Assembly: GCA_945867665.1 (NCBI GenBank)
Contig: CAMBIR010000005.1
Location: 8,659 to 72,658 of the forward strand
Reading direction: 5' to 3'
Source: an uncultured Bacillota bacterium
Lineage (GTDB): Bacteria > Bacillota_I > Bacilli_A > RF39 > UBA660
DNA length: 64,000 bases
A program made the position numbers and the translations under genes. Below are positions 2,647-60,761 of this stretch, in pieces. The stretch's first letter is position 1. Every line of letters begins with the position of its first letter. The notes beneath the pieces are model-generated. The model was not told where the DNA came from. It saw only the letters and a program-made list of their open reading frames with translations, and did no database searches.

Positions 2647-2724
2647 GTTTTATCATCCTTTCTTTGTTTTAGTATAGCACTTAGAGAATCAAAGAGGGAA
2701 GAAGTTCACTAAAAAAATACTTAT

Positions 2725-3249
2725 CTAGAATTTTATTTTTTTGCCTCGTACAATACAATGATAATGAAATGGGATGGCTCTTATTCTTGGTTTGGGTTTG
2801 GTATAAATGCGAAAGAAGATTTTTTCTTTGGGAAATTTTTTATGCGTGAAACTATCAAAGTTTTCATAGACTTTATTTAATAATTCTGTTATTGTTTTTC
2901 CTTGATAGATGCCTTTCATTTTTTCCCATGATGGTTCTATCCAATAGTAAGTATCTTCTTTTTTATAGACTAAGAAGGTATGGCAGTAGAGTTTATGATG
3001 AAGAAATACTCCGGCATAGATGGTTTGGTTGGGAATATTTCTTGCAGTAAATTCTTCTCTTTCTAATTCACAGATTTCCCAACAGATGGCGGAGGATGTT
3101 TTTTTGATTTCTTCATTGGTTTGAAAGTAAAAGTCTTTAAAGAAATTTCCTTCTTTTAAATGAGGATGAAAGGTTCCTTTTTTATCGTGCCAACCATATT
3201 TTATTTGGGATAGACGCATGAAGTATTTTTTTATTTCCTCATTATTCAT
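2725..3249 (-). CDS. Hypothetical protein
   Basis: 174-aa ORF with RBS-like AGGTG upstream. Spaced Cys/His residues (CWEIC, HHKLYCH, HYHC) hint at a small thiol-enzyme fold, but I recognise no family. Confidence 0.4.
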   Translation of the reverse strand: MNNEEIKKYFMRLSQIKYGWHDKKGTFHPHLKEGNFFKDFYFQTNEEIKKTSSAICWEICELEREEFTARNIPNQTIYAGVFLHHKLYCHTFLVYKKEDTYYWIEPSWEKMKGIYQGKTITELLNKVYENFDSFTHKKFPKEKIFFRIYTKPKPRIRAIPFHYHCIVRGKKIKF

Positions 3250-8680: not shown

Positions 8681-8941
8681 ATTTTATACTCCTTTCCATT
8701 CTTACCCCCATTATAGCAAATATCGACAATTTTTGCTACTAAAAGATTGTTATTTACAAAAAATACTGATAAAAAATTAGCAAAAAAAGATAGATTAATC
8801 TAAGGATGATTTTTCTATCTTTTATAGAATATATGTTTATTTAAATTTAGTATTTTAAACTTTCTTATCATAAAATAGATATTATTAAAATTAAAAATAT
8901 GAAAAGAAGGGTCTCTATCAGTATTTTTTAAATCTAAAAAA

Positions 8942-11868: not shown

Positions 11869-11908
11869 AAAAATACTGATAAAGATTAAAGGTCTATATC
11901 AGTATTTT
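11869..11908 (-). terminator. Intrinsic terminator hairpin, AAAATACTGATA…TATCAGTATTT stem family
   Basis: 11-bp perfect stem with 13-nt loop, flanked by A-run and T-run. Lies 3' of the minus-strand gene ending at 11907. Confidence 0.6.
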
Positions 11909-13739
11909 ACTTGTGATAAGTATTAGTATCTATATTAAATTTATCAGAAATTCCTGGTAACTCTATTTTATTTCCATATTCATCTATTTTTTCTCTTTTA
12001 GGGAATTGGATATGTTGTCGATGATTGTTTATCTCTATGGTTTCTTGTAATTTATTTTGGAATTCTTCTCCTTCTAAGTGATATAATTTTTGATAAACTT
12101 CACTTACTGCCGACATAATCGTTTGTCCTGATACTGGTTTATTGACTTTGGTTAAAAGATACTCTCCTATTTCATAAAGAATTTCTTTTTCATTAGGCCA
12201 ATTCATAAAACTTTTTTCCATTTCAGGGTAATGTTTTTTTAAAGTTTCAATAAACTCAGGAGATAGTTTTTTTAAGTGTTCAACTAAATCTATTAAAATA
12301 TCTTTTAAAGTACTCTTAGAATTTCTATCTAGATAAAAGTTTACTTTTTGGTAGAATTCTTCTAATGAGTTAATGTTTAATAATTCTAAGGAAGAATTAT
12401 TAATGGAAGAATTAATAAAATTATATCTTCTACTATTTGTTTCTTCTTCTGCGGTTAATAATAGGTGATTGTATAAGTCATTTTTTAAATCATTATCCCA
12501 AGTAGGATCGGTTATATAAAAACCGTCTATTCCATATTTAGGATCTTTAATATATACATACTCCCTCGCATGGCTATCATGCTTTGATACTACTGTTTCG
12601 TTTTCATTAAACCTATCATAAGAAGTATCTACACCAACATTTCTATGGATATTTTTAATTCCTGATTTATTTAGTAAGTCTTCTAGCATATTGGCATATC
12701 CTACACATACCATATATTCATTTTCTAAAATAGCATATAGATTTCTGGATGCAAATTTATCGATTTGATTTTCTTTATATTGTTTATATTGCTTGACTAC
12801 ATTATAAGCAGAAATATATCTTTCAAATGGGGTTAAATTTTGAGTTTCTTCTATCATTTGATATAACATTTTTTCGAAGCGAAGATATTCTTTTACAGAA
12901 ACAATACTTTGACCTAGTTGGATATCTATATTTTCATTTAAATAATGGTTATTGGATAAAATATTATTGGTTACAAATTCTTTATTTTTAACATTTATCA
13001 TTACATGGTTTTCTTTCCCTAATTCATGTAGTCTTTCAGATATTAAAACGGCATCTTTCATATTTTCTTCTTCAATTACGATTTTAGTAGTACTATTAGG
13101 TAAGTATTTTAAATTTTCTAGGTCCTCTTTGGTGATTTTATTTCTTAAGGAGATGGATGAACTAGATAAAGCAGCATATGAATTACTCCCAACTAAATTA
13201 CGGTCATAATTATAATAAATTAGGGAATCGAAATTATTTTTTAGTTCATCTGAAACACCAGAGGTTCTTACTTTTTTTAATTTCGATTGTTTTAAGATAT
13301 TATAATCTTCTTTTGTTAAGATATATTTGGTTTCATCATACATTGCTAGCGTAATTTCTTCTAGATTCTTATTGTGAGTTATAGCTTCTATGATTTTTTT
13401 GGTGATTAAAGCTTGAGATTGAATGTCCAATTTCTTTTTTAAATTATTTTTAATTATTTCTGATAAAATTTTTTCTACTTCTTCTTGGTTCTTTAAATAA
13501 TAGTCTGGGTTTATATATAAAGTCTTACCTGAGTTTAAAAAATCAGTACCAATTAGAAATGGTTTATCTATTGTTGTATAAATTTTTTTCTCTATGCTTG
13601 ATGAGGGTAATTTTTCTATTTCTTCTTTCTTTAAACAGAGTGATGAAATATCAAGTTTATCTAAATTTGTTAATATTTCATTTGGGGATAGGGATTGATA
13701 CTTATCTGTTTGTTCATATAAATTCTTTATGTATTCCAT
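11907..13739 (-). CDS. Hypothetical cytoplasmic protein with transglutaminase-like (Cys-His-Asp) core
   Basis: 610 aa, no signal peptide. Segment YMVCVGYANMLEDLL followed by SHAREYVY and ITDPTWDN resembles the transglutaminase-like cysteine protease catalytic triad arrangement. Confidence 0.4.
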   Translation of the reverse strand: MEYIKNLYEQTDKYQSLSPNEILTNLDKLDISSLCLKKEEIEKLPSSSIEKKIYTTIDKPFLIGTDFLNSGKTLYINPDYYLKNQEEVEKILSEIIKNNLKKKLDIQSQALITKKIIEAITHNKNLEEITLAMYDETKYILTKEDYNILKQSKLKKVRTSGVSDELKNNFDSLIYYNYDRNLVGSNSYAALSSSSISLRNKITKEDLENLKYLPNSTTKIVIEEENMKDAVLISERLHELGKENHVMINVKNKEFVTNNILSNNHYLNENIDIQLGQSIVSVKEYLRFEKMLYQMIEETQNLTPFERYISAYNVVKQYKQYKENQIDKFASRNLYAILENEYMVCVGYANMLEDLLNKSGIKNIHRNVGVDTSYDRFNENETVVSKHDSHAREYVYIKDPKYGIDGFYITDPTWDNDLKNDLYNHLLLTAEEETNSRRYNFINSSINNSSLELLNINSLEEFYQKVNFYLDRNSKSTLKDILIDLVEHLKKLSPEFIETLKKHYPEMEKSFMNWPNEKEILYEIGEYLLTKVNKPVSGQTIMSAVSEVYQKLYHLEGEEFQNKLQETIEINNHRQHIQFPKREKIDEYGNKIELPGISDKFNIDTNTYHK

Positions 13740-13829: not shown

Positions 13830-13870
13830 AAAATACTGATAAAGATTTTTCTTCTCTATCAGTATTTTTT
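13830..13870 (-). terminator. Intrinsic terminator hairpin, same AAAATACTGATA…TATCAGTATTTTTT stem family
   Basis: Perfect 12-bp stem with T6 tail, located 3' of htrA-like gene (minus) and 5' of the 610-aa gene. Confidence 0.6.
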
Positions 13871-18332: not shown

Positions 18333-18388
18333 AAAATACTTATTTAGAAGTACTCTTAATTTAAGGATATTTCTTTTTAAGTATTTTA
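18333..18388. terminator. Bidirectional terminator between convergent genes (arms AAAAATACTTA / TAAGTATTTT)
   Basis: Imperfect long hairpin between the + strand gene ending at 18325 and the - strand ABC gene ending at 18386. Flanking A/T runs. Confidence 0.45.
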
Positions 18389-29143: not shown

Positions 29144-29172
29144 TTTTTACTTTTACTTCTTTTTTGTATAAT
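29144..29172 (+). promoter_or_regulatory. Putative agrB promoter (extended -10 TGTATAAT, weak -35)
   Basis: TGTATAAT at 29165-29172, 18 nt upstream of the agrB RBS. A T-rich -35 region is consistent with an activator-dependent promoter. Confidence 0.35.
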
Positions 29173-29190
29173 GGAATTGTAGGTGATAAT

Positions 29191-29811: not shown

Positions 29812-29850
29812 TTTTACATAAAAAAGAATAAAAAGAAGGAGGAAAAAAAT

Positions 29851-29973
29851 TATGAGTTTTATTGCAGACTTATTAGCAAGAATTGGAGGTAGTGCCGCTA
29901 GCACTGGTACTAAGGCATGTGCTGTTTGGTTTTTGGATGAACCAAAAATGCCTAAAAAGTTAATTGAGAAATA
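29851..29973 (+). CDS. agrD: AgrD-like autoinducing peptide precursor (40 aa), missed by the ORF track
   Basis: Strong RBS AAGGAGG, then a 9-nt spacer, then ATG. Product MSFIADLLARIGGSAASTGTKACAVWFLDEPKMPKKLIEK has an N-terminal amphipathic helix, a single Cys core (CAVWF(L)) and a charged tail DEPKMPKKL resembling the conserved AgrD C-terminal DE.VPKEL recognition motif. Lies immediately downstream of agrB. Confidence 0.6.
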
Positions 29974-29985
29974 GATAAAAATAAA

Positions 29986-30015
29986 TAAAACACTCGTTCT
30001 TGAGTGCTTTATTTT
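29986..30015. terminator. Bidirectional terminator between agrD (+) and agrC (-)
   Basis: AAAACACTC-gttctt-GAGTGCTTT followed by ATTTTTG. A-run on the left gives a T-run on the minus strand. Confidence 0.55.
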
Positions 30016-31322: not shown

Positions 31323-32028
31323 ATGTTTTCAACTCCTTCTTTTTTCTATTTGAAAGTAAATAGACTGTTTTGTTATTCAAGAATGTAATGGTGTTTTCTG
31401 AATAATTTATTCTTTTAATTTTCTCTACATTTACGATACATGATTTGTGGCATTGAAAGAAACTTCTTCCTAATCTTTCTGATAATTCTTGGATTGAGAG
31501 ATTGGTTTCAAATTTTTCTCCACTTTCAGTTACGATTACACATTTTGATACTTCTTGTAATTTTTCGATATATAAAATATTATCAAATGGAATTCTATAA
31601 GAATTACGATTGAAGTTATAAATCAGTACTTTTTTCTTATTGATTGTCTTTATGATGTAACGAATTGTTTCTTCTAATCTATCCGGCCATATTTTATCTT
31701 TTGGAATGAAATCAATTGCTAATAATCTAGAGTAGAATATGTCATTTTTACATTCGCCGTGATTTGTTACAAATAAAATGACACTATCTAAATCTTCTTC
31801 TCTTATTTCAGATGCAATTTCTAAGCCTGATACTTCACCAAGTTCAATATCCAGGATATAGACTTTTTCTTCTCCTTCTTTCTTGATTAGTTCATGAACT
31901 TCCTTATTATATTCAGTAAATTCATTAATTTTATACTCGAAGTTATAAGGCATCATGACTTTTGTTAAAATATTATGAATTCTTGTTAAGAACTCTTTAT
32001 TGTCTTCGCATATAATAAATCTTACCAT
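31306..32028 (-). CDS. agrA: LytTR-family response regulator (AgrA-like)
   Basis: REC domain (ICEDN...LDIELGEVSGLE) followed by LytTR DNA-binding domain (YRIPFDNILYIEKLQEV...FFQCHKSCIVNVEKIKRI). 240 aa. Confidence 0.85.
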   Translation of the reverse strand: MVRFIICEDNKEFLTRIHNILTKVMMPYNFEYKINEFTEYNKEVHELIKKEGEEKVYILDIELGEVSGLEIASEIREEDLDSVILFVTNHGECKNDIFYSRLLAIDFIPKDKIWPDRLEETIRYIIKTINKKKVLIYNFNRNSYRIPFDNILYIEKLQEVSKCVIVTESGEKFETNLSIQELSERLGRSFFQCHKSCIVNVEKIKRINYSENTITFLNNKTVYLLSNRKKKELKTYVENY

Positions 32029-37012: not shown

Positions 37013-37097
37013 AAGAAAATACTTAGGAAAACATGAATTTATGTTAGATATTTTGTTGTTTGAAGAAGAATTTTTTAGAAGTATTTTATGGGTATGT

Positions 37098-40324: not shown

Positions 40325-40417
40325 ACTATCACCATTTTAATTATAGTATAGGTTAGTTAAAAAAGGAACATAATTATACTTTTGGTTTACAAATTTTTAC
40401 TTTTGTTTACTTTAAGT

Positions 40418-40454
40418 AAAATACTGATAAGGGTTTTAGCTCTCATCAGTATTA
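40418..40454 (-). terminator. Terminator hairpin of the AAAATACTGATAAG…CTCATCAGTATT stem family, 3' of hybrid kinase gene
   Basis: 12-bp stem with one mismatch, overlapping the stop codon of 40436..42301. T-rich tail on the minus strand. Confidence 0.5.
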
Positions 40455-42301
40455 TTTTTATTAAAACAATCATCAATTTTTTCTTTAATGATTTCTTTGG
40501 TGAACGGTTTTGTTACACAATCTGTGAATCCTAAGAGTTGATATTTTTCTCTGGCTCCATTTATAGCATCAGCAGTTAGGGCAAGAACTGGCGTGTTAAA
40601 ATTTTTTATTTTCTTTAACTCTTTCATTGCGGTTACGCCACTCATCACAGGCATCATGATATCCATTAGAATAATATCATAATGTTTTTCTTTTACTTTT
40701 CTTAAAGCTTCTTCGCCATTGTAACATTCTTCTACTTCTTTAAAATTTAACCCACTTATTGCCCTTCTTGCTACTTTTATATTTAATTTATTATCATCAA
40801 CAATTAAGATACTTTTATCTTGGTAAGAAATCTGATTTTCGAGTGATTCTTGATTTTTGGCTTGATTTTTTAACTTTGGTGGAGAGGAAATTTTTTGAGG
40901 AAGGGTTACCATAAACATCGAGCCTTTTCCGAATGTTGATTCAACATTTATTTTTCCCCCTAATAATTCGACTAATTTTTTCGTAATTGCAAGGCCTAAT
41001 CCTGTTCCTTCAGTTGTCGTATTTTTTTCAATATCTAGACGTTCAAATTTATGAAATAGTTTGTCAATATACTCTTTTTTTATTCCTCTTCCGGTATCAC
41101 TAACGGTAATTAATAAAACAGTTGTTACTTTTTTATTGATACATTTGATATTTAATTCTATTGTTCCTTTATCGGTATATTTTATTGCATTGGATAGTAA
41201 ATTATTTAGAATTTGTTTTACGTGGATTTTGTCGCCTTTTAAGTATTCTGGAATATCAGGAGCCATATTTAGTTGATAATCAATTGGCTTGGCACCTATT
41301 CTTGTTCCATTAATTTTAAATAAAGTTTCAACTTCTTCTTTGAAGTTATAGACAACTTCTGTTATTTCTAGCTTGTCACTTTCAATTTTATTGATGTCCA
41401 TAATATTTCCTACAATTTCTAGAAGGGTATGGGATGCTGAAATAACATCATCGACATCTTCTTTCATACTAGTTGGTAATTCTTTATTATCTGCCATATC
41501 TTCGCATAGTCCTACTATTGCATTTAGAGGTGTTCTTATCTCGTGAGACATTGAAGATAAGAAGTCACTTTTCGCAGTATTGGCTTTTTCGGCTTGTTCT
41601 CTTGCAATATTTAATTCTTCTATCATTTTAATGTCAGGATTTTCAATAGTAAAATACATTAGATTAGTTACGATAGCAAATGATGATGAGATGATTAGAA
41701 ATCCTGGATTTAAGGCTCTTATCCCTAATGCCAATGTCATAACTAAAATGAATGCCAGTACAGGAATATATTTGTTTTTCTTTTCTTTATTTATTCTATT
41801 AATGTAGCATATTATCCAACTAACAAGATAAAATAAAACAATTATGTACAATAAATTTGCACTCATTCCATAAGAATATACAATGTTATTTCTATGATAA
41901 TAATTTAGTGGTAAAAATAATAATAAACTTACTATAATAAACCATAGAATAACAAATGCAATTCCTTTTTTTTGATGGAAATTTAATTTTTCTTCCTTTC
42001 TTTTAAAAGATATGGAGTAAATATATAATGTAAATAATGATTGCCAAAGAAAGATTGTAATAAGAAACAAACGATTAATTAACTCTGTTAAAAAAGGAAT
42101 TTTTTCTAGGTTGGATACTGTTATGCAGCAGAGAATTTCCATAATTAAATTTATTATATTTACAATAATAATATTTCCATATAAATCGGTTTCTAGATTA
42201 TGAATTCTTTTTTTATTAAAATAAATTATTCCAATAAAAACACTATAAATTAAGTTGCAAGTAATTGTTGCAAGACCTAAATACATAAAAAACACCTCCA
42301 T
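40436..42301 (-). CDS. Hybrid sensor histidine kinase / response regulator (polytopic N-term, HisKA, HATPase_c, C-terminal REC)
   Basis: H-box [15 protein letters not shown] boxes ([14 protein letters not shown]), C-terminal receiver ILIVDDN...[10 protein letters not shown]. The true start is probably the second Met (about 42286), preceded by an in-frame GGAGGTG RBS. Confidence 0.8.
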
Positions 42302-42350
42302 ATGTTCTTTAAGATAAGTATAACATATGAAAGTTTTTTTTAAAATAAAT

Positions 42351-44189
42351 TTATTTTTCTTTTTTGGTTAAAGACTTTATTTTTCCTTTTTTTGAATTTT
42401 CTATCATCTTTAGAGCTTGTGTATCTATTTTTCCAATAGCAGTTACGGGGAATTTATCAATTACTTGGTAAGAATATGGTAAGGAATATTCAGCTAAATT
42501 TTTTTGGCATAATTCTTCTATTTCTTTTAATATTTGTGCTTGATCTTTGGTAGGATCCTTTAAAATAATATATGCTTTAGGTAATTCTCCTTGAATTTCA
42601 CTATAATCTCTGCATCCTACTACTTTACATTCTGATACTTCTTTATGTGATAAAATAATTTCTTCAATTGAGGAAGGATAAACTTTAAATCCATCTGGTC
42701 TAATAATCATTTCTTTATATCTTCCTTCGACAAATAAGATACCATCTTGATCAAAATACCCTAAATCTCCAGAATAAATTATAGGTATTTCTAATTCATT
42801 ATGAAGAATTTTTTTCTCTTCTTTTAAATTATTATAATATCCTAACATCACATTTGGGCCAGAAATTCTAACTTCTCCTTTATAATTATAAGGTAATTCC
42901 TGATTGGTTTTTGGATCATATATTCCTAGATTACATTTATGAAGGGGAATACCTACACTTTTTAGTTTATTTACTTCATTATTTATGCACACTGAAACTG
43001 CTGCATCTACTTCACTCATTCCATAACCTTTTATAATTTTGGTTTGGCAATGATGTGATTTTAAAAATTCATTTACTTGCCTTTCCAGCGTATAGTCCAT
43101 TTTATCTCCGCCTACAATTGGTGTCTTGATAAAAGATAAATCTTCATTTTGTAATTTTTTACTGGATAATAGGTAACCATAATGTGAAGGTACTCCCGCC
43201 ATATAATTTGGCTTATGTTTAAGTAAAATTTCGTCATATTTAGATGGATCAAATTTTGGCATTAAAATAACTTTCATGTTCATTGATAGAGGTAAGTGTA
43301 AGCCGTTTCCCACACCATAAACGATAAATGGAGGCATGATATCTAGCCATGTTCCATGATCTTTAAAATCAAGTCCACTAATTTCACATTGGTAAGCACA
43401 GCAATTGATATTATCATTAGATAAAATTACTCCCTTTGCTTTTCCTGTTGTTCCTCCCGTATGAACGATGGTTACAGGCATGTTTTCTTCATATTTTACT
43501 TCTTTTACTTCTGGATTTCTTTTCTTTAAAAAAGTCTTCCAGTCTATAACTTCTTTTGTATCCATAAATCTTTTTTCTTTACTAGCAATTTTATCTTTTA
43601 ACTTCAGTATTTTTTGAATTGGTGCTTTAAAACTTTCGTAAGGCGTAATAATAACAACTTCTTCAACAGAAGTATTTTTCTTTAAATTTTTATATTTTTC
43701 GTTTGTTGCATCTATTCCAAAGAAAATTTTTGAATGAACTTCATCAGCATATTCTTCTAGTTCAGTAGCACTTTTTCGTGGATCAATCATATTTGAGATT
43801 GCTCCAATTTTCGAAAGAGCATAGAACAGAAAAACCATTTCTGGAGTTGTTGGCATAGAAATTGTTACAATATCTCCTTTTTTGACATTCATTGCTACTA
43901 GAGATTCTGCTGTTTGATCAATCTTTTCAATCAATTGTTTATAAGTTAATTGATTTCCAAAATATTCGATTGCTATTCTATTTAGATTATCTTTATTTTT
44001 TTCTTTTAAATATCCATAGATGGTATTTTTAGGCATGTCACTTTTGATTACTTCCTCGCTATAATATTTTAACCAAGGTTTGTCAATACTAGCATAGCCT
44101 GTTGGTGGGCCTTGAATTTTCCCTAAAGATAAGTCTCTTAGATATAAATCTCTTAATTTTTCTTCATTTAAATTTAAATTTTTAATCAT
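42351..44189 (-). CDS. AMP-binding (adenylate-forming) enzyme, acyl-CoA synthetase-like
   Basis: AMP-binding motif [15 protein letters not shown], and adenylation core motifs ([29 protein letters not shown]). 612 aa. Confidence 0.75.
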
Positions 44190-44340
44190 GGTTACTCCTC
44201 ACTTCTAAAAAATTTGAACTTTATTTTATTTGTAAGTTTACTAGTTGGCTTCATTTCTAATTAAATATAGCATTTTTTCTTTTTAAAAGATATTTATTTT
44301 TCTTATAGTTAACAAAAAATGCTTTTCTAGAGTTTTAGTA

Positions 44341-46944: not shown

Positions 46945-47316
46945 ATGAAGAAATTTTTAATTTTATTTTTTTGTATATGCTTGTTAAGTGGTTGTGGTAG
47001 TGAAAAAAATACTAAACAAGATAGTTACTCTGTTAACTATATGGAGGCTAAGGAAAAAATTATTAATGATGGTGCTATCCTTTTAGATGTTAGGTCAGAA
47101 GAGGAATATAATGTTAAACATATTGATGGTGCTAGTTTGCTTCCTTTAGACAAGATTGATAGTGATAGTATTGCCGCAATTGTTAATGATAAGAATAGTC
47201 CTATTATTGTTTATTGTAAGAGTGGCAATCGAAGTCATCAAGCTTTATTAAAATTACAAGAGTTAGGTTATAGTAAAGTTTATGATTTAGGGGCAATGAG
47301 TAATTGGGAAGAATAG
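46945..47316 (+). CDS. Rhodanese-domain lipoprotein
   Basis: Lipobox LLSGCGS after signal peptide. Rhodanese active-site loop CKSGNRS. 123 aa. Followed by two tandem hairpin terminators. Confidence 0.8.
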   Translation: MKKFLILFFCICLLSGCGSEKNTKQDSYSVNYMEAKEKIINDGAILLDVRSEEEYNVKHIDGASLLPLDKIDSDSIAAIVNDKNSPIIVYCKSGNRSHQALLKLQELGYSKVYDLGAMSNWEE

Positions 47317-47320
47317 AGTT

Positions 47321-47396
47321 ATCCACAGGTAACTGTGGATAACTCTTTTTAAAGTAAAAACAATATAAGTATTTTTTACCTATATTGTTTATTTTT
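47321..47396. terminator. Two tandem hairpin terminators between rhodanese gene (+) and FIST gene (-)
   Basis: Perfect 12-bp stem AGTTATCCACAG/CTGTGGATAACT (47321-47348) followed by TCTTTTT. Second hairpin AAACAATATA/TATATTGTTT (47358-47390) followed by ATTTTTT. Confidence 0.65.
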
Positions 47397-48745: not shown

Positions 48746-48770
48746 AAAAATACTAGATTGTCTAGTATTT
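48746..48770 (-). terminator. Terminator hairpin AAAAATACTAGA-ttg-TCTAGTATTT 3' of dCMP deaminase gene
   Basis: 10-bp stem, 3-nt loop, A8 run on the plus side gives T8 on the minus strand. Confidence 0.6.
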
Positions 48771-48791
48771 GAGAGATGTTTGGATAGCGAT

Positions 48792-49376: not shown

Positions 49377-49649
49377 ATGTTTACTTTAAGAGATGCTGTT
49401 TTTGTCGCAAATGAATTGGGAGTTACTTTTGATCATTTTTCTGTCCAAGACTTGATTACAGGGTTAAATATTGAACTTGAGCACGGATATCAAAATCCTA
49501 TTACCAATATTACGAACAATGATTTATTGCTTACGGCGAAAATTGTACTTGCACATTTGAAGGAGTTTCCTAATTATTATAATGAAGAGTATGGTCTTCC
49601 CGCAATGGAGAGAGAATTAAAGAGACATTTAATGGAAGAATATAGTTAA
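49377..49649 (+). CDS. Hypothetical small protein
   Basis: 90-aa ORF on the rare plus strand, no family recognised. Confidence 0.4.
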   Translation: MFTLRDAVFVANELGVTFDHFSVQDLITGLNIELEHGYQNPITNITNNDLLLTAKIVLAHLKEFPNYYNEEYGLPAMERELKRHLMEEYS

Positions 49650-49670
49650 AATACTTATCTTTATTTTTCC

Positions 49671-50597: not shown

Positions 50598-50664
50598 TAG
50601 ATACTCCTTTCTTCTTTATTGTAACATATTTTAACTGAAACCAACCTTAAAAATAGAGAAAAAA

Positions 50665-52419
50665 GGGGCTGTCATGAAATGAAATAATTTCATACAGCTT
50701 TTTTCTTTTGAATTTTTTGCTTTGGAAATGGTAATTTTTCTGTTTTTAGATTGTTTGGCTTTTCCCAATAGTTGCTTTTGATTTTATCATTGTTAAGTAG
50801 AACAAAAAATTTTCTTATATTTCTTCCTAAACACATAAGCATTATTTCACAAGATACTTTTTCTAATCCACGTCTTCTTATTCGCTCATAATTCATATTT
50901 TGTTTAAGTTGTCCAAAAGTACCTTCTACTTGAATACTTCTATTTATCCTTATTTCTATACCTTTAGGACTAAGTAAATTTTTTCTTGCCTGTTCTTTTA
51001 ATAATTCGTAATCAGTATTTAGTTCATATAATCTATAATCTAAATCTTTATTCTTCAAATTTTTCTTACAAATATAAGCATAATTGCAAGCATTGCAACC
51101 TATAAATTTATATAACTTGCCTTTCTTATTTCTTTGATGATGACTATAGTTAAAAGGAACTTCTTCTCCAATACAAGTATTTAAACACATAACTCCATCA
51201 TCAAAAGTATAAAAAAGTTGAGGTCTTTTACCATCTGCTTCGCCACTCCATGTTTGAAATTTAACATAGTTTCCAATATTGTGCTCTCGCATATATTTAT
51301 AATTCACATAAATTCCATATCCTGAATCAGCACATTCGTTTTCAGGGTACTCATTATAATATTTAAAATATAAATCATTCATTGAAATAAAAGTATAATA
51401 ATCACTTCTATCTTGGAATACTCCGTACAAAGTTATTAATTCACTTGATACCATTACCTGAATATTATAGCCAGCGTGAAAATCATGACTTAATTTTGAA
51501 TAATAATCTTCCTTTAATACCATTGCTGTTGCATCTTTATCTGTCTTAAAATAAGAGTTTCTATTTTCGCCACAAATTCTTTCTTTTTCTTCATATTCTA
51601 GTAGTTTTATTAGATATTGGTATGCCAATTTATAATTTTTTTGCTCTTTAGTCAAACGCTTACCTTTCCCAGTTGGAATAGAATTTATATCAATATTTTT
51701 CCTAATAACATATTCTTTGATTTTTTCATTTAACTCATTACTTTTGATTAAATTTTTATCATTTATTTCCATATCCATTGATAGTAATAATTCTTTGATT
51801 TTAATATCAAGTTTTTTATGAAAGGTGGTTGGCTTCCAAACAAATTTATATTTGTTAGCATTAGCTTCTATTTTAGTTCCATCCAAATATTGATTAGTTA
51901 TATCTAAATTAAACTCTTCTATAATTGTCTTTGTTACCATAGTAAATATTTCATATTGATAAGGAAGAATGTACTTATTAATACACTCACAAATAGCATT
52001 ATAACTAGGTTGCTCTTGTTCCATTATATACATTACTCTTAAATCAAAAACACAAAGTTGTTCTATTTCTCTTAAACTACTTTTAAATTGGGAAAAGCAA
52101 TAAATTATAGCAGCTACCAAATTATATGGATTATAACCGTTTCTACCATTTTTCTTTTGTACTTTTTCAATTAGAGTTCCTATATTACTTTTATTTAAAA
52201 TTGATATAAATTTGTCTATTTTATCAAATTCCTCATAACACTCTTTTGAGGACACTATGAAAATAGACCTTTTTATGGTAAAATAATTCATGTGATACAT
52301 CTTCTTTCAGCAATTTGATTGTATCACATATAGCGTTAGAAATTAGTTTTTCTAGCGTTTTTTATATTTTAATTAACAAAAAAAGAACTGTATGAAATTA
52401 TTTCATTTCATGACAGCCC
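50665..52419 (-). mobile_element. Complete IS1182-family insertion sequence (about 1.75 kb) with 33-36-bp terminal inverted repeats
   Basis: Perfect inverted repeats GGGGCTGTCATGAAATGAAATAATTTCATACAG at 50665-50697 and its reverse complement at 52387-52419, flanking a single DDE transposase ORF. Confidence 0.8.
50690..52300 (-). CDS. IS1182-family DDE transposase
   Basis: 536 aa. N-terminal GRNGYNPYNLVAAIIYCFSQFKSSLREIEQLC and central DGTKIEANANKYKFVW are IS1182/IS5-superfamily hallmarks. Confidence 0.8.
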   Translation of the reverse strand: MYHMNYFTIKRSIFIVSSKECYEEFDKIDKFISILNKSNIGTLIEKVQKKNGRNGYNPYNLVAAIIYCFSQFKSSLREIEQLCVFDLRVMYIMEQEQPSYNAICECINKYILPYQYEIFTMVTKTIIEEFNLDITNQYLDGTKIEANANKYKFVWKPTTFHKKLDIKIKELLLSMDMEINDKNLIKSNELNEKIKEYVIRKNIDINSIPTGKGKRLTKEQKNYKLAYQYLIKLLEYEEKERICGENRNSYFKTDKDATAMVLKEDYYSKLSHDFHAGYNIQVMVSSELITLYGVFQDRSDYYTFISMNDLYFKYYNEYPENECADSGYGIYVNYKYMREHNIGNYVKFQTWSGEADGKRPQLFYTFDDGVMCLNTCIGEEVPFNYSHHQRNKKGKLYKFIGCNACNYAYICKKNLKNKDLDYRLYELNTDYELLKEQARKNLLSPKGIEIRINRSIQVEGTFGQLKQNMNYERIRRRGLEKVSCEIMLMCLGRNIRKFFVLLNNDKIKSNYWEKPNNLKTEKLPFPKQKIQKKKAV

Positions 52420-52423
52420 CTTC

Positions 52424-53479: not shown

Positions 53480-53697
53480 TTTTCCACCTCCTTATGGTCT
53501 ATTCGGCTTAATTTAAAATTAAGCAAGGAACTTTCGTTCGATTGATATTATATCATAATTTAATTACATAAGTAAACTGTTATTTTACTCTTTTTCTAAA
53601 AAAATACTTCATTAAATTTTTCTAAAGAAAAAGATACTTCTATAGAAAGAATAACTAATTAATTTTTTAAAAATTAGCTTTTTTTTAAGTAATTTCT

Positions 53698-55098
53698 TTA
53701 ACGTCTTCTCTTAGATACTTCTGAGTCATCTTGTAAATTATACAACTCACTATAATTTATAGCGTTACTAGAAGGTGAGATAAGATTGGTAACTATACTA
53801 GTTTCACTCTTCTCTCTATAGTCTTTTAAAGGTTTACTCCTGACTGGAAGACGTAATTTTCTGATTGCTTTTAATTCTATTTGTCTAACTCGATTTTCTG
53901 TCATATTCAATATTTTTCCCACTTGGTTTTCAGATAAGGGATGAGCGTTAGATAAACCTAGTAATAAATCTAGAACAGTTCTTTCTCTATCAGTTAAACT
54001 GTCTAATAAATTATTTAAGTTTTCTGTTAATTCTTTTTTTATCACTATATTTTCTGGATTTTTAGATTGAATAATATTATCCACATTTCTTATTTCTTCT
54101 TTTGCGTTCCAATTTTCATCTTCTAAGTATTCATCTAAGCTAACCATTGATTCCATTAGAATTTTTCTAATTTGATTATATGTCTCTCTATACTTTTTAA
54201 AATCTTCTGGTATTGGTTGAGCAGTTGATAAATTTATCATTTTAATATATTGGGGATGAGTTTGCTTTCTGGCTTGCTCTATTCTTATCATTTCATCAAG
54301 GATTAATCTTGCCAATTTTTCATTTTCTAGAATGGTTTCATTTTCTCTTTTTTCCACATTATTTTTTGCTTTTAAATATAGCGAGTACCAATTTCGATTG
54401 CTTGTTTTATTTTGAGGATTATACAGCTTGGTTTTATTTTTTTGAATCCAATAATTAATTTGATTTACTAGATAATTTGCAAATGTTCCACGACTTTTAT
54501 CATAATTATCAATATTATTTATCGCTTCTACAAGTGCTTCGTAGCCATAGCTTTCTATTTCACTGATATCTTTATCATAAAAAAGGGAATATTTCCAACA
54601 AACATAAGGGACTAAACGCATATTTCCCAATATTAATTCATCTCTTAAGGTATTATCTTTTTTCTTTTGATAAAGTTCTGCTTTGATTTGGGACTCTTCT
54701 GAAGTTAAAGCCTTGGGCAATTCTTGATTTTTATAAGTCCGTAAATTTTCATAATTTTCAAATTGTTCATCTAGAATAGTGTCTTTTCCCCTTACTAGAA
54801 TATTTTTTTCTTCTAAATATTTCATAATATTATTTGTTTCGGTTTCGTTTAGATTAAGAGAAATAATATCTTTTAACTTGATAGCAGGAATTCTGGTACT
54901 GCTATATTTTTTCATTTTGCCATTTTTTGTTTCTATGTAGCCTACAAATTCTCTATCTTGATCAAATTCTTTTCTTTTTTTGACAAAATAAATATGCCCT
55001 GGTATAAATTCTTTTTCAACAAAATCTTCTAATTGTTCCTTTGTTTCAAAATGAAGATTTTCTGGTTGTTTCCTTTCTAGTTCCGACATTTTATTCAC
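53698..55098 (-). CDS. Atypical sigma-70-family RNA polymerase sigma factor with about 150-aa N-terminal extension
   Basis: Region 2 (ELILGNMRLVPYVCWKYSLFYDKDISEIESYGYEALVEAINNIDNYD…FANYLVNQINYWIQ) and region 4 (LTDRERTVLDLLLGL…VGKILNMTENRVRQIELKAIRKLR) are recognisable. The N-terminal 150 aa and a long region-3 linker have no homolog I recognise. Confidence 0.6.
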   Translation of the reverse strand: MNKMSELERKQPENLHFETKEQLEDFVEKEFIPGHIYFVKKRKEFDQDREFVGYIETKNGKMKKYSSTRIPAIKLKDIISLNLNETETNNIMKYLEEKNILVRGKDTILDEQFENYENLRTYKNQELPKALTSEESQIKAELYQKKKDNTLRDELILGNMRLVPYVCWKYSLFYDKDISEIESYGYEALVEAINNIDNYDKSRGTFANYLVNQINYWIQKNKTKLYNPQNKTSNRNWYSLYLKAKNNVEKRENETILENEKLARLILDEMIRIEQARKQTHPQYIKMINLSTAQPIPEDFKKYRETYNQIRKILMESMVSLDEYLEDENWNAKEEIRNVDNIIQSKNPENIVIKKELTENLNNLLDSLTDRERTVLDLLLGLSNAHPLSENQVGKILNMTENRVRQIELKAIRKLRLPVRSKPLKDYREKSETSIVTNLISPSSNAINYSELYNLQDDSEVSKRRR

Positions 55099-55237
55099 CT
55101 CTTTTGTTTTATTTTATCATAAATATTTTTATTATTTATTAATTTTTGTTATTCTTAACTAATTTTACATTTTTATTAATAGACTATATATAATTATTTT
55201 GTCTTTAGAATTTAATTTATCACTTTTTTAAATATAG

Positions 55238-55279
55238 AAAATACTTATCAAATATTAGAGACTCGATAAGTATTTTTTT
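55238..55279. terminator. Terminator hairpin GAAAATACTTATC…GATAAGTATTTT 3' of pepF
   Basis: 12-bp stem, 15-nt loop, T7 tail. Confidence 0.55.
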
Positions 55280-58339: not shown

Positions 58340-58780
58340 TTAAAGTTGGACTATCAAATGATATTGCTGGTCTTGTTTTTTCCTTGTTTTGATTTTCTTT
58401 CCAAAAAGATGATTCTTTTTTTCGAATTTTTTTATTGCAATCTGTTCTTTAGAAATATCTTGTTTGGCCATTTCTCTTATATGAAGTAAATTAATATTTA
58501 ATTCTTTTACTGCATTTTTGAATAAAATACCAAAGGCAATTTCTTTATTTCGATTTAAGCCTTTTTTAGAAATAAAGATGGGCGTTTCTTCTAGAGATTT
58601 TTGGATATTCATTGTAAGGCTATTTAAAATAGAAGCATACTTTACTTGTACTTTTCTTGGTACTTTACTCCATTGGCCAAACTGAGTAGTTGGAAATAAC
58701 TTTTTTATACATTTTGAATAAATTTGAGCATTATTTAATTGATACTTTTCTTTTTCTTGATTGAACATATTGAAATTCAT
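58340..58780 (-). CDS. Hypothetical basic protein
   Basis: 146 aa, Lys-rich, unknown family. Followed by a hairpin terminator at 58275-58306. Confidence 0.4.
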   Translation of the reverse strand: MNFNMFNQEKEKYQLNNAQIYSKCIKKLFPTTQFGQWSKVPRKVQVKYASILNSLTMNIQKSLEETPIFISKKGLNRNKEIAFGILFKNAVKELNINLLHIREMAKQDISKEQIAIKKFEKKNHLFGKKIKTRKKQDQQYHLIVQL

Positions 58781-58893: not shown

Positions 58894-58915
58894 AAAAATA
58901 CTGATCAGTATTTTT
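58894..58915. terminator. Perfect 22-nt palindrome AAAAATACTGATCAGTATTTTT (bidirectional terminator) 3' of AbgT gene
   Basis: Zero-loop perfect palindrome of the recurrent AAAATACTGAT stem family with flanking A5/T5. Confidence 0.55.
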
Positions 58916-58955
58916 CGTAAAAAAAAGAAACAAATCTTGGAATAAGAAATGTTTC

Positions 58956-60500
58956 TTATAATGTTACTTTCGTTGCAATTCCTATTGGAATACCTAGAGT
59001 ATAGAAAACAATTACAATAGCGAGCCATAAAACAGTAAATGCTACGGTATATGGAGTCATTAAGGATATGGCTCTAGAAATGGTTACGGGGTCATTTTTC
59101 TTCTTATTGTAAATTTGAAGAAAGCCAATTAAAATGACAAAGTAAGTAAATAATGGTGTGATTCCTTTTACAGAACTGTCTGCCGCTCTAAATACGACTT
59201 GAGCAAATTCTGGGGTTAAGGAACTTTGCATAAACATTGGTACAATAATCGGCGCTAAAATTGCCCATTTTGTTGAAGCAACGGGTACAAGAAAGGTAGA
59301 TACTAATGTTAGGAAGAATGTGATTAGAACAAGGACAATTCCCGTTAATTGAAGATTTCCTACCCAGTTTGTAAGACTAGCGACAACGAAGACGCCAAGG
59401 TTAGTTTGTTTGAAAATTAAACAAAATTGAGCAGCAAAGAAGATTAAGACAAGGAGTGATGATAAATCTTTTAAATAATAATTCATTCCATCTACAAAAT
59501 CACGATTGTTTTTAAACGTTTTCACTCTTAGGCCATAAACTAAACCGGCTAACATCAAAAGAAAACTAAAGATAAAAACAGAACCTTTATAAAAGTATGA
59601 ATTTGCTCCAAATAATTGATTAACATAGCCTGAATCTTTTAGGTAAAGAAGTAAGCCAGAGAAAGGTAGTCCTGGTGTGATGCAATAGATAATCGGTAGT
59701 AAAATTGCTACTACTGAGAGAATCGCAATGATTAGACCTTTCATTTCTGTTTTGGTTGGTTCTTGTTTTCTATTTTCTATTTCTTCTTCCTCAAAGTTAT
59801 ATTTTCCTAATTTAGGAATGATTACTCTTTCTGTAATGAGCGTACCAATGTAAGCAACTAATAAGGTACTTACCATCATAAAAATAAGATTTCCATTGGT
59901 TTTTACTTTATAAGTAGCATCAAGAATTGTCGTTGCTGATTTGGTATAAGGAAGTAGACTACTATCTAGCGAATTTGCGACAATATTTGCACCTGAGCCA
60001 AAAGTAATTCCAGCGAAGGCAGCGCAGATTCCAGCGGATGGATGTCTACCTAAATCTCTAAATAAAATAGCCGCCATAGGAATTAAAATAACATACCCCA
60101 CATCATAGAACATCGAAAAAATTACTCCTAGTAATACAATTAAGAAGGTTAACATTTTTCTAGGAAATATTTTGGCAATCACTTTATTTAAGGTATTTAA
60201 AAATCCTGATTTATAAGCAACTCCTATTCCCATTAGTCCTAAAATGAAAGTTCCTAGGGGTGCAAAATTCATAAAATTGGAAAGTAAATTACTGATTAAG
60301 TATTGAATTCCTGTTCGATTGAAGAGATTGTTAATATTTACTACTTGGGACTCTAAGTCACCAGTTACGGTATTTACTGTATAATAGTTCGTTTCTAGAT
60401 TTAAAATTCCACCAATACTACTAATCACCATAACCGTTAGGGTTAAAACGAGAAAAACTAGGGCTGGATGGAATTTTGTTCTTTTGATTTTATTTTTCAT
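58956..60500 (-). CDS. AbgT-family transporter (p-aminobenzoyl-glutamate/YdaH/MtrF-like)
   Basis: 514 aa polytopic. N-terminal region (…NRTGIQYLISNLLSNFMNFAPLGTFILGLMGIGVAYKSGFL…) aligns to the AbgT consensus. Confidence 0.75.
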   Translation of the reverse strand: MKNKIKRTKFHPALVFLVLTLTVMVISSIGGILNLETNYYTVNTVTGDLESQVVNINNLFNRTGIQYLISNLLSNFMNFAPLGTFILGLMGIGVAYKSGFLNTLNKVIAKIFPRKMLTFLIVLLGVIFSMFYDVGYVILIPMAAILFRDLGRHPSAGICAAFAGITFGSGANIVANSLDSSLLPYTKSATTILDATYKVKTNGNLIFMMVSTLLVAYIGTLITERVIIPKLGKYNFEEEEIENRKQEPTKTEMKGLIIAILSVVAILLPIIYCITPGLPFSGLLLYLKDSGYVNQLFGANSYFYKGSVFIFSFLLMLAGLVYGLRVKTFKNNRDFVDGMNYYLKDLSSLLVLIFFAAQFCLIFKQTNLGVFVVASLTNWVGNLQLTGIVLVLITFFLTLVSTFLVPVASTKWAILAPIIVPMFMQSSLTPEFAQVVFRAADSSVKGITPLFTYFVILIGFLQIYNKKKNDPVTISRAISLMTPYTVAFTVLWLAIVIVFYTLGIPIGIATKVTL

Positions 60501-60681: not shown

Positions 60682-60761
60682 TTTATCCACCTCTTTTTCA
60701 AGAGTATTATAACATTTTTGAAATTTGATGTAAATAGAGGGACTTTTTAAAAAGAAAAAGA

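What the first reader, a model, noticed from the sequence alone, without database searches (positions are those of the whole stretch)
58894..58915. Recurrent conserved-stem terminator family (AAAATACTGAT…ATCAGTATTTT) at gene ends
At least six intergenic hairpins in this window share the same outer stem sequence AAAATACT…AGTATTTT, and four share the longer AAAATACTGAT(A)…(T)ATCAGTATTTT core. Sites:
- 11869-11908
- 13830-13870
- 40418-40454
- 58894-58915 (a perfect 22-nt palindrome)
- 48746-48770 and 55238-55279 (related variants AAAATACTAGA and AAAATACTTATC)
- isolated half-sites at about 8759-8770 and 8914-8926
Ordinary intrinsic terminators do not conserve stem sequence, so this looks like a REP/BIME-like repetitive palindromic element family that doubles as bidirectional terminators (A-run on one side, T-run on the other). 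It could also mark a protein- or RNA-recognised site.
Basis: seen in the sequence. Interest (0 to 1): 0.55.

Follow-up and report, generated by a model that had tools for sequence, protein, structure and literature searches.

The report
Conserved 39-base hairpins at gene ends
An uncultured gut bacterium (class Bacilli) places the same 39-base palindromic hairpin just after the stop codon of many genes, probably as a transcription stop signal, and the same hairpin sits at every joint of a site where whole gene cassettes are gained and lost between strains.

Summary
AAAATACTGAT occurs 10 times in the window against 0.28 expected, and 9 of the 10 are intergenic.

The copies belong to one homologous family, specific to a clade of uncultured gut 'Bacilli' MAGs. 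The unit is 39 nt: 16-nt arms (AAAATACTKATMKAGA / complement) around a variable 7-nt centre. There are also 20-22-nt mini palindromes, split copies and orphan arms.

Full copies start -21 to +15 nt from a stop codon and fold at -14.5 to -17.5 kcal/mol. In 6 of 6 informative paralogs the non-Watson-Crick pairs are G.U on the strand transcribed with the upstream gene. The arms stay conserved in relatives with about 81% nucleotide identity, while the centres and flanks drift.

Best reading: a REP-like family of RNA 3'-end hairpins, acting as weak intrinsic terminators or mRNA stabilisers.

New finding: the copies mark gene-cassette junctions. The htrA-to-U32-peptidase site carries 0, 1 or 3 defence-like cassettes in different strains, with one element at every joint.

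I cannot tell whether the element drives this exchange or only travels with the cassettes as their terminator. The flagged 22-nt palindrome lies after a separate canonical terminator, so it is probably not the main terminator there.

The parts
13830..13868 (-). Full 39-nt element H2, 9 nt after the htrA stop codon. It is the left border of the variable cassette site.
   Evidence: CM hit of 59.6 bits. Folds at -17.5 kcal/mol, z -6.5. G13.U27 wobble on the minus strand only. Homology to CAKOUR, L138 and L184 ends exactly here.
11870..11908 (-). Full 39-nt element H1. It overlaps the stop codon of the 610-aa cassette gene and is followed directly by the extended -10 promoter of the U32 peptidase gene.
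   Evidence: CM hit of 58 bits. Fold. Junction analysis.
11907..13739 (-). Accessory cassette gene (610 aa, no Pfam, NCBIfam or PADLOC match) bracketed by H2 and H1.
   Evidence: No family hits. Absent in L138, replaced in CAKOUR, and one of three cassettes in L184.
55238..55276 (-). Full 39-nt element of the T-type subfamily (AAAATACTTATC...GATAAGTATTTT), 4 nt after the pepF stop codon.
   Evidence: CM hit of 52 bits on the minus strand against 43.4 on the plus strand. Two G.U pairs on the minus strand. Compensatory G-C>U-A and A-U>C-G changes relative to the G-type. Homology to L175 ends at 55276 and to L177 at 55231.
40418..40456 (-). Element H3. Its 5' arm encodes the last codons of a hybrid histidine kinase, and the stop codon lies in the loop.
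   Evidence: CM hit of 26.8 bits. Fold. The arms are invariant in four diverged orthologs or paralogs (L171, L174 copies 1 and 2). The element is absent from the 82%-identical kinase in L172.
58894..58915 (.). The flagged site: a 22-nt mini palindrome made of the two outer arms joined directly.
   Evidence: The distant relative L179 keeps a palindrome at the same place with a symmetric G>T / C>A change. In L178 a cassette begins at its dyad centre (58904).
58917..58957 (-). Separate canonical terminator of the abgT-family gene (AAGAAACA...TGTTTCTT plus a run of eight T), immediately upstream of the mini palindrome.
8760..8927 (-). Split copy. The 5' arm (8912-8927) and 3' arm (8760-8775) enclose 136 nt that contain their own terminator-like hairpin and a third, degenerate arm (8849-8856).
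   Evidence: The CM finds a half hit at 8894-8927.
18333..18387 (.). 55-nt composite hairpin with T-type outer arms, between convergent genes.
48747..48771 (-). Short related terminator (AAATACTAGA...TCTAGTATTT plus a run of eight T). L178 has a cassette inserted in its T-run. L171 and L175 have an unrelated terminator at this position.
37016..37087 (.). Outer arms AAAATACT and AGTATTTT 56 nt apart, downstream of pcrA. The arms are conserved in L171 and the interior is not. There is no significant fold.
53601..53608 (-). Orphan 3' arm (AAGTATTTT on the minus strand) upstream of the rpsF promoter. It is orthologous to the 3' arm of a full element in L175, and homology to L175 resumes exactly here.
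2714..2728 (-). Orphan T-type arm (CTAGATAAGTATTTT on the minus strand) that overlaps a stop codon. No hairpin is predicted.
49648..49659 (-). Orphan T-type arm 12 nt after the stop codon of the DAGK-family gene. The 8-mer is conserved in L171.

Best explanation
The sites belong to one lineage-specific family of small palindromic repeats, REP-like in size and placement. The unit is 39 nt: 16-nt arms (consensus AAAATACTKATMKAGA and its complement) around a free 7-nt centre. It sits at the 3' end of genes.

Inferred mechanism: the element is transcribed with the upstream gene and folds into a 16-bp A/U-rich RNA hairpin. The AAAA/UUUU ends double as the U-tract, so the hairpin would act as a weak intrinsic terminator and/or a 3'-exonuclease barrier.

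Because the same unit closes both core genes and accessory cassettes, copies become direct repeats on either side of cassettes. These repeats let cassettes be lost, gained and reshuffled by recombination between copies.

Shown: family membership, position, foldability, strand-asymmetric wobble pairs, compensatory changes, conservation of the arms, and location at cassette joints. Inferred: transcription, termination or stabilisation activity, and the recombination route.
For: 1. Strong over-representation, with 9 of 10 copies of the 11-mer intergenic.
2. In the three related MAGs every copy is exactly 39 nt and shares inner-arm sequence. Unrelated genomes give singletons of random length.
3. 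Full copies start -21 to +15 nt from a stop codon.
4. RNA folds of -14.5 to -17.5 kcal/mol, with z scores of -4.2 to -6.5.
5. In 6 of 6 informative paralogs the non-Watson-Crick pairs are G.U on the strand transcribed with the upstream gene and A x C on the other strand.
6. There are compensatory changes between the G- and T-subfamilies: 93.8% of cells are paired against 41-52% when the partner is slid, and 4 pairs change on both sides.
7. Intergenic arms are fully conserved at 6 of 8 sites in a relative with 81% nucleotide identity, against a 24% background. The H3 arms are invariant across diverged kinase copies while the centres vary.
8. After the stem core, 5-7 of the next 8 bases are T (sequences).
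9. Recombination between copies is visible. L138 has a single element where the window has H2-gene-H1, with an overlap of exactly 39 nt. L184 has four elements around three cassettes.
Against: - There is no free U-run beyond the 4 U that can pair with the A-run, and the stems have only 3 G-C pairs. Termination may therefore be weak. The simple terminator scan did not list them.
- RNA structure alone does not explain why the arm sequence is kept.
- Mini palindromes lie after efficient-looking canonical terminators. One of them is conserved, with a symmetric change, in a distant relative whose flanks cannot be aligned.
- Orphan arms with no predicted hairpin are conserved at 5 of 6 sites.
- One copy (L162 19811-19849) combines a G-type arm with a T-type arm and so carries two mismatches.
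- No expression data were available.
Confidence: 0.6

Rival explanations
1. The element is an active recombination site. Units of [genes + element] would be inserted and excised at resident elements by a trans-acting enzyme: a tyrosine recombinase as for integron attC or Xer/pdif modules, or an HUH/Y1 enzyme that acts on hairpins. Termination would then be secondary.
For: - The htrA-to-U32 site has 0, 1 (two different ones) or 3 cassettes, with one element at every joint. Every cassette or module seen ends in its own element: the 610-aa gene, the GajB-like helicase, the WYL cassette, the three-gene cassette in L175, and the AMP-ligase + kinase module.
- Many homology breakpoints fall within 0-7 nt of an element end or at a dyad centre: 13830, 11914, 55276, 55231, 53601, 58904, 58895, 40414, 40453.
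- Full elements occur only at junctions that vary between strains. None lies in the syntenic block 30.5-40.3 kb.
- A hybrid G/T-type copy suggests a crossover in the centre.
- The mini palindromes have the 8-6-8 layout of a recombinase core site.
Against: - No recombinase, integrase or Y1 transposase lies next to any array or in any locus gene table.
- Cassette insertions also occur at other terminators or away from the element: the 287-aa gene at 60749/60753, the 1639-aa gene 44-49 nt past the element at 55189-55194, and the 210-aa gene in a T-run.
- The 7-nt centres differ between copies, which is unfavourable for tyrosine-recombinase strand exchange.
- One insertion is flanked by a 62-nt repeat at 98% identity that extends 23 nt beyond the element into a promoter. 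That is what homologous recombination would give.
- Alignments necessarily run through any shared element, which biases apparent breakpoints towards its ends.
- The cassettes carry their own promoters.
Confidence: 0.2
2. The 8-11-nt arm is a DNA-level recognition word read one copy at a time, for example a DNA-uptake-type signal or the site of a DNA-binding protein. Inverted pairs would then be co-opted as terminators, as with DUS/USS in Neisseria and the Pasteurellaceae.
For: - The arm sequence, not the spacing, is what is conserved: 0-4, 17, 39, 56 and 136 nt between arms.
- Orphan arms without structure are conserved.
- AAAATACT is also enriched inside genes after synonymous-codon shuffling: 25 sense hits against 9.5 expected. 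No such enrichment appears in unrelated AT-rich genomes.
- There is a precedent for uptake signals that form terminator stems (PMC1852404).
Against: - Only 1 of 10 copies of the 11-mer is in a gene, and ATACTGAT is not enriched in genes.
- In-gene 8-mers are not conserved between relatives: 4 of 13 against a 24% background.
- The in-gene enrichment is strand-biased and only weakly repeated in relatives.
- The G.U asymmetry and the compensatory changes point to RNA pairing.
- Sequence-specific DNA uptake is not known in Bacillota (own knowledge).
- Distances to promoters are not fixed.
Confidence: 0.08
3. The elements are miniature transposons (MITE-like). The 16-nt arms would be terminal inverted repeats, and the mini, 39-nt, split and cargo-carrying forms would be deletion or cargo variants moved by a transposase encoded elsewhere.
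For: - Arms are conserved while the interior varies in length.
- A split copy has a 136-nt interior.
- Copy density differs between lineages: 3-4 in 5.7 kb of L096 against none in 21.8 kb of L172.
Against: - No target-site duplication is visible at any copy.
- No clean filled-versus-empty polymorphism of a single element was seen.
- The two IS types found have unrelated terminal repeats: an IS30-like element in L174 and L172, and an IS1182-like element at window 50664-52421.
- The placement within 21 nt of stop codons, co-oriented with the gene, and the conservation at orthologous sites argue for selection, not random insertion.
- The 39-mer has no meaningful match in phage or plasmid collections.
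Confidence: 0.07
4. These are ordinary, independent terminators that look alike only because the genome is very AT-rich.
For: The exact 11-nt stem occurs as a hairpin in more than 100 unrelated genomes across many phyla, so it does arise by chance.
Against: - Those chance hits are one per genome, with random spacing.
- The related MAGs have several each, all 39 nt, with shared inner arms.
- 10 copies against 0.28 expected in the window.
- Other terminators in the same window use unrelated stems.
Confidence: 0.03

Closest known systems
REP / BIME elements of Enterobacteria and Pseudomonas
   Same: Imperfect palindromes of about 35-40 nt. They are extragenic, lie at the 3' end of transcription units, are dispersed in many copies, act as RNA hairpins that stabilise or terminate, and are known to mediate rearrangements between copies.
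   Different: - No GTAG-type conserved foot.
- No clustered, alternating BIME arrangement.
- No RAYT (Y1 transposase) gene seen.
- A/U-rich stem whose ends are the A- and U-tracts.
- The host is a Bacillota lineage.
- The 39-nt length is fixed.
DNA uptake sequences (DUS/USS) paired as terminator stems in Neisseria and the Pasteurellaceae (PMC1852404)
   Same: The most over-represented genomic word forms the stems of hairpins just downstream of genes. Single copies also occur.
   Different: The 11-mer is almost absent from coding sequence. Its density is about 1 per 6 kb, not 1 per kb. The in-gene 8-mers are not conserved. No competence link was tested.
Integron attC sites and gene cassettes
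   Same: Imperfect palindromes with conserved outer parts and a variable centre. One follows each cassette in an array whose content differs between strains, and an empty allele with a single site exists.
   Different: - No R''/R' core (RYYYAAC / GTTRRRY).
- No adjacent integrase or attI.
- The cassettes carry their own promoters.
- The element is much shorter.
- The inner stem is too short for an L box.
Neisserial intergenic mosaic elements (dRS3 repeats), Correia elements and 'minimal mobile elements' (own knowledge)
   Same: Short inverted-repeat units in intergenic regions next to strain-variable gene cassettes held between conserved genes. They are thought to promote cassette exchange by recombination, and some act as terminators.
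   Different: Unrelated sequence and host. No associated phage or IS110-type integrase is seen here. The unit is a single 39-nt hairpin, not a mosaic array.
Stem-loop repeat families catalogued across bacterial genomes (PMC2267715), and BOX/RUP/SPRITE of pneumococcus (PMC3049150)
   Same: Lineage-specific families of small repeats that can fold, mostly intergenic, proposed to work at the RNA level.
   Different: Those families are usually longer (60-200 nt). This sequence is not described: a word search of the literature found only primers, and Rfam has no match in the window.

Membership tests
Intrinsic (Rho-independent) terminator | Stable RNA hairpin within a few tens of nt after a stop codon | tested here: met
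   Hairpins start -21 to +15 nt from the stop codon. Folds of -14.5 to -17.5 kcal/mol; 0 of 200 shuffles fold as well.
Intrinsic (Rho-independent) terminator | U-rich tract directly after the stem | tested here: inconclusive
   5-7 of the 8 bases after the AGUA foot are U, but the first 4 can pair with the 5' A-run, and no long free U-run follows. The consensus scan did not list these hairpins.
Intrinsic (Rho-independent) terminator | Selection on pairing in the transcribed strand | tested here: met
   G.U rather than A x C on the gene's strand in 6 of 6 informative paralogs. Compensatory changes at pairs 9:31, 12:28, 13:27 and 16:24.
Intrinsic (Rho-independent) terminator | Transcripts end at the site | not testable with these tools
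   No RNA data were available for this uncultured organism.
REP / BIME | Short imperfect palindrome, extragenic, at the 3' end of genes, dispersed | tested here: met
REP / BIME | Hundreds of copies per genome | not testable with these tools
   Only the 64-kb window and loci of up to about 22 kb could be read. The window holds 4 full or near-full copies, 1 mini and 1 split copy.
REP / BIME | Conserved GTAG-type tetranucleotide at the foot, and a cognate RAYT (Y1 transposase) gene | tested here: not met
   The foot is AAAATACT / AGTATTTT. No Y1_Tnp gene appears in any locus gene table. Whole genomes were not searched.
REP / BIME | Clusters of alternating copies (BIMEs) | tested here: not met
   Copies are single. 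When several lie close together they are separated by whole genes.
DNA uptake sequence (DUS/USS) | Word present about once per kb, in genes as well as between them | tested here: not met
   The 11-mer occurs 10 times in 64 kb, once in a gene. ATACTGAT is not enriched in genes.
DNA uptake sequence (DUS/USS) | Inverted pairs that form terminator stems | tested here: met
DNA uptake sequence (DUS/USS) | Sequence-biased DNA uptake with a specific receptor | not testable with these tools
   This needs transformation assays or a complete genome.
Integron attC / cassette array | Conserved R''/R' core sites RYYYAAC...GTTRRRY | tested here: not met
   The sequences have no such cores.
Integron attC / cassette array | Adjacent IntI integrase and attI | tested here: not met
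   The genes around the arrays are marR, ABC transporters, zip, PAP2, htrA and U32 peptidase.
Integron attC / cassette array | One site after each cassette, with array content varying between strains | tested here: met
   Alleles with 0, 1 or 3 cassettes and an element at each joint.
MITE | Terminal inverted repeats plus a target-site duplication | tested here: not met
   Inverted arms are present, but no flanking duplication is seen at any copy.
MITE | Parent IS with the same terminal repeats | tested here: not met
   The IS30-like and IS1182-like elements have unrelated ends. Whole genomes were not searched.

The most novel reading that the evidence does not exclude
The 39-nt hairpin is the recombination site of an integron-like cassette system in a Bacillota lineage that has no integrase next to the array. 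Units of [promoter-genes-hairpin], many of them defence-like, would be inserted and excised at resident hairpins that follow core genes. The enzyme would be encoded elsewhere: a Xer-type or other tyrosine recombinase, or a hairpin-specific HUH enzyme. The hairpin would at the same time serve as each cassette's terminator.
Probability: 0.2. Interest if true: 0.8.

Novelty: new member of a known kind. Interest (0 to 1): 0.45.

Why it matters
Small palindromic repeat families are well studied in Proteobacteria (REP, DUS-terminators, Correia, attC). They are hardly described in the uncultured, small-genome gut Bacilli that are common in human and animal microbiomes.

This family gives three things:
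- A ready marker, as a covariance model, for gene ends and for cassette junctions in these MAGs.
- An example in which selection keeps the sequence of a terminator stem, not only its pairing.
- A compact natural system (htrA | element | cassettes | element | U32 peptidase) with empty, single and triple-cassette alleles. This system can be used to test whether terminator-like repeats organise the exchange of defence genes.

If the element proves to be a true recombination site, it would be a new cassette-capture mechanism outside integrons.

Tried and rejected
- **Rfam (gathering threshold).** Only tRNA-Trp was found.
- **Simple terminator and promoter scan.** It does not flag the elements, and its counts equal those of shuffles.
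- **Exact-stem scan of 185k species genomes.** It gave mostly chance hairpins in unrelated phyla. It served only to pick out three related MAGs and as a negative control.
- **Metagenome scan.** 30 loci, of which only three were related.
- **GCAATCG.** It is the top 7-mer, but it turned out to be a coding motif of ABC transporters and similar genes, not a repeat.
- **IS30-like and IS1182-like ends as a source of the arms.** They are unrelated.
- **BLAST of the 39-mer against phages and plasmids.** Only chance-level hits.
- **Literature word search for the arms.** Only primers.
- **Classical operator in front of promoters.** Rejected, because the distance to the -10 box varies from about 13 to about 95 nt.
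- **Exact-protein look-ups with YchF and HlyIII.** They returned only near-identical strains and gave no information on the 58894 and 8760/8927 sites. The split copy could not be compared with a diverged relative.
- **PADLOC and Pfam on the 610-aa, 351-aa and 146-aa genes.** No hits.

Full report
**Setting**

- The window has 28-30% G+C and is about 86% coding. Nearly all genes are on the minus strand.
- Exact-protein look-ups place it in human-gut metagenome assemblies.
- The nearest public genomes are MAGs labelled 'uncultured Bacilli bacterium': CAKOUR01, CAKPOS01 and JAQXQC01, at 91-98% nucleotide identity. More distant YchF homologs are labelled Erysipelotrichaceae.
- Promoters are of the extended -10 type (TGnTATAAT), seen as ATTATAGCA on the plus strand.

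- AAAATACTGAT occurs 10 times against 0.28 expected. AAAATACT occurs 61 times against 12.7 expected.
- These words and the variant AAAATACTTA(T) are the most over-represented 8- to 11-mers in the window.
- Nine of the ten 11-mers are intergenic, although only 14% of the window is intergenic.
Their flanks are unrelated, so they do not come from one duplicated segment.

**Anatomy**

- A scan of 185,579 species genomes for the exact stem with any 0-30-nt spacer returned more than 119 loci. Most are single hits in unrelated phyla, with spacers of random length and sequence.
- The three related MAGs had 2-4 of the listed loci each. Every copy there is AAAATACTGAT-N17-ATCAGTATTTT, 39 nt in all, with similar inner arms.
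- The unit is therefore a 16-nt arm, a 7-nt free centre and a 16-nt arm.
- A second subfamily (T-type, AAAATACTTATC...GATAAGTATTTT, window 55238-55276) has the same 39-nt length. It differs from the G-type by paired changes on both arms.
- A covariance model built from ten paralogs finds the following in the window:
  - three full units (13830, 11870, 55238);
  - a shifted unit whose loop holds the stop codon of a histidine kinase (40418);
  - the 22-nt mini palindrome (58895);
  - half of a split copy (8894-8927).
- Other forms are:
  - outer arms 56 nt apart (37016/37087) or 136 nt apart (8760/8927);
  - a 55-nt composite hairpin (18333-18387);
  - orphan arms (2714, 34144, 49648, 53601, 58253).
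- A more distant MAG (RGIG4757, locus L096) carries three copies after genes within 5.7 kb.

**Evidence for an RNA 3'-end hairpin**

- Full copies start -21 to +15 nt from the stop codon of the upstream gene.
- They fold at -14.5 to -17.5 kcal/mol, and no shuffle does as well.
- In all six paralogs that carry an informative non-Watson-Crick pair, the pair is G.U on the strand transcribed with the upstream gene. On the other strand it would be A x C.
- The named structure pairs 93.8% of cells, against 41-52% when the partner is slid. Four pairs change on both sides.
- The stem has only three G-C pairs. The U-tract is largely the UUUU that can pair with the 5' AAAA, so as terminators these elements look weak.

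**Evidence for constraint on the sequence itself**

- Against a relative with 81% nucleotide identity, 6 of 8 intergenic AAAATACT/AGTATTTT arms are fully conserved, compared with a 24% background. In-gene occurrences are not conserved (4 of 13).
- The kinase-end element keeps invariant arms in four copies whose centres differ and whose genes have diverged. An 82%-identical kinase in a different context lacks the element.
- The mini palindrome downstream of the abgT-family gene is retained in a distant relative (L179; YchF 91% identical). It carries a symmetric G>T / C>A change there, while the flanks cannot be aligned.
- Several conserved orphan arms form no significant hairpin.
- Structure alone does not explain these points.

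**The flagged site**

- The 22-nt palindrome at 58894-58915 follows a canonical terminator (stem 58925-58932 / 58950-58957 plus eight T) by about 2 nt.
- It is probably not the primary terminator of the abgT-family gene.
- In strain L178 the same position has the full 16-nt 5' arm (AAAATACTGATAGAGA), followed by a 520-aa gene cassette. Homology to the window breaks at 58904, the dyad centre.

**Cassette junctions**

The two window copies H2 (13830-13868) and H1 (11870-11908) bracket a 610-aa gene that matches no family. The alleles found at this site are:

| Source | Arrangement |
|---|---|
| L138 | htrA, a single element, U32 peptidase. The two homology blocks overlap by exactly 39 nt. |
| Window, CAKPOS | The 610-aa gene |
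| CAKOUR, L137, L180 | A different cassette that begins with a WYL-HTH regulator |
| L184, L185 | Three cassettes (GajB-like helicase; the 610-aa gene; WYL remnant plus a 609-aa gene), with four elements, one at every joint |

- A still more distant relative (L182) has a defence island at the same place, but only an orphan arm.
- The pepF-to-rpsF interval behaves in a similar way. The sigma-like gene of the window is absent in L177. In L175 it is replaced by three other genes that end in a full element. Breakpoints lie at 55276, 55231 and 53601, which are element or arm ends.
- The AMP-ligase + kinase module that ends in the 40418 element is itself duplicated in L174 and relocated in L172.
- In the window, full elements occur only at junctions that vary between strains. 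None occurs in the syntenic block 30.5-40.3 kb.

**Why I do not conclude that the element is the recombination site**

- Cassette insertions also occur at unrelated terminators (60749/60753), 44-49 nt past an element (55189-55194) and in a T-run (48728/48749).
- One insertion in L184 is flanked by a 62-nt repeat at 98% identity that extends into a promoter, as homologous recombination would give.
- No recombinase lies near any array.
- The centres differ between copies.
- Alignments run through any shared element, so apparent breakpoints gather at its ends.
- The most economical reading is that this lineage uses one hairpin as the standard 3' end of both core genes and cassettes, and that the resulting direct repeats permit loss and reshuffling.
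- Active, site-specific use remains possible. I put it at about 0.2.

**Other rivals**

- A DUS-like word is unlikely. The 11-mer is nearly absent from genes, and the in-gene 8-mers are not conserved.
  - AAAATACT does show an unexplained enrichment on the sense strand in the window's genes (25 against 9.5 after synonymous shuffling). The enrichment is lineage-specific, and relatives repeat it only weakly.
- A MITE is unlikely. There is no target-site duplication and no matching IS ends, and the placement is tight and oriented.
- Chance similarity is excluded.

**Comparison with known systems**

- The element works like REP. It also resembles DUS-terminators and attC/NIME-type junction repeats. 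It fails defining features of each (see the membership table).
- Families of small stem-loop repeats are common in bacteria (PMC2267715), so I file it as a new member of that broad kind.
- This sequence is not in Rfam, in the literature, or in phage and plasmid collections.

Noticed in passing
window 50664-52421: An insertion sequence: a 536-aa DDE transposase (DDE_Tnp_1_6 / DDE_Tnp_1) flanked by inverted repeats of about 30-55 nt (GGGGCTGTCATGAAATGAAATAATTTCATA...), lying between rpsR and the DAGK-family gene. It is absent from every related locus compared (L152, L175, L177, L178, L179).
   Followed up: partly
window 29164-32028: An agr-like quorum-sensing locus. It has AgrB (29164-29811, +) and a small AgrD-like ORF just downstream (about 29852-29974; MSFIADLLARIGGSAASTGTKACAVWFLDEPKMPKKLIEK). 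A LytTR response regulator and an HATPase_c_5 kinase lie on the opposite strand (30009-32028).
   Followed up: no
window, all coding regions: AAAATACT is enriched on the sense strand inside genes, in all three reading frames: 25 observed against 9.5 expected after synonymous-codon shuffling, with antisense at 9 against 7.3. The sites are not conserved in relatives. The enrichment is absent from unrelated AT-rich genomes and only weakly repeated in other loci of the clade. It is unexplained.
   Followed up: partly
window 40414-44319; L174 2966-11872; L172 7963-11837: The AMP-dependent ligase + hybrid histidine kinase pair behaves as a discrete movable module. It is tandemly duplicated with an IS30-like element between the copies in L174. 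In L172 it sits in a different neighbourhood (after DCD genes, before AbiEii) and has no hairpin.
   Followed up: partly
window 11907-13739, and loci L016/L118, L184, L182: The site downstream of htrA looks like a defence-island hot spot. It holds a WYL-HTH regulator, GajB-like UvrD helicases, several large proteins without any family match (610, 609, 651 and 773 aa), and, in L182, TnpV and a type I HsdM. The 610-aa protein of the window has no Pfam, NCBIfam or PADLOC hit.
   Followed up: partly
window 53698-55098: The 466-aa sigma-70-region-4 protein between pepF and rpsF is accessory. It is missing in L177 and replaced by unrelated genes in L175 and L179. L176 has an extra 1639-aa gene inserted upstream of it.
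   Followed up: partly
L137 14671-14733: In one metagenome contig the H1-type element is cut inside its 3' arm (…TCTTTATCA|TATGGCAATCGCTTAAAAATTG…), and the contig ends 50 nt later. This could be another insertion into the element or an assembly break at a repeat.
   Followed up: no
window 47316-47350: The terminator hairpin of the rhodanese gene is a palindrome of the DnaA-box word (GAGTTATCCACAGGTAACTGTGGATAACTC). This is probably coincidence.
   Followed up: no
window 58340-58780 and the orthologous positions in L152, L154, L177, L179: The small gene between the abgT-family gene and ychF varies in length and identity between strains (146, 154, 158 or 162 aa; two other genes in L179). It has no family match.
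   Followed up: no
L162 19811-19849 (just outside the window start, after a SEC-C domain gene): A hybrid 39-nt element with a G-type 5' arm and a T-type 3' arm, giving G x A and A x G mismatches. It looks like a recombinant between two subfamily members.
   Followed up: partly
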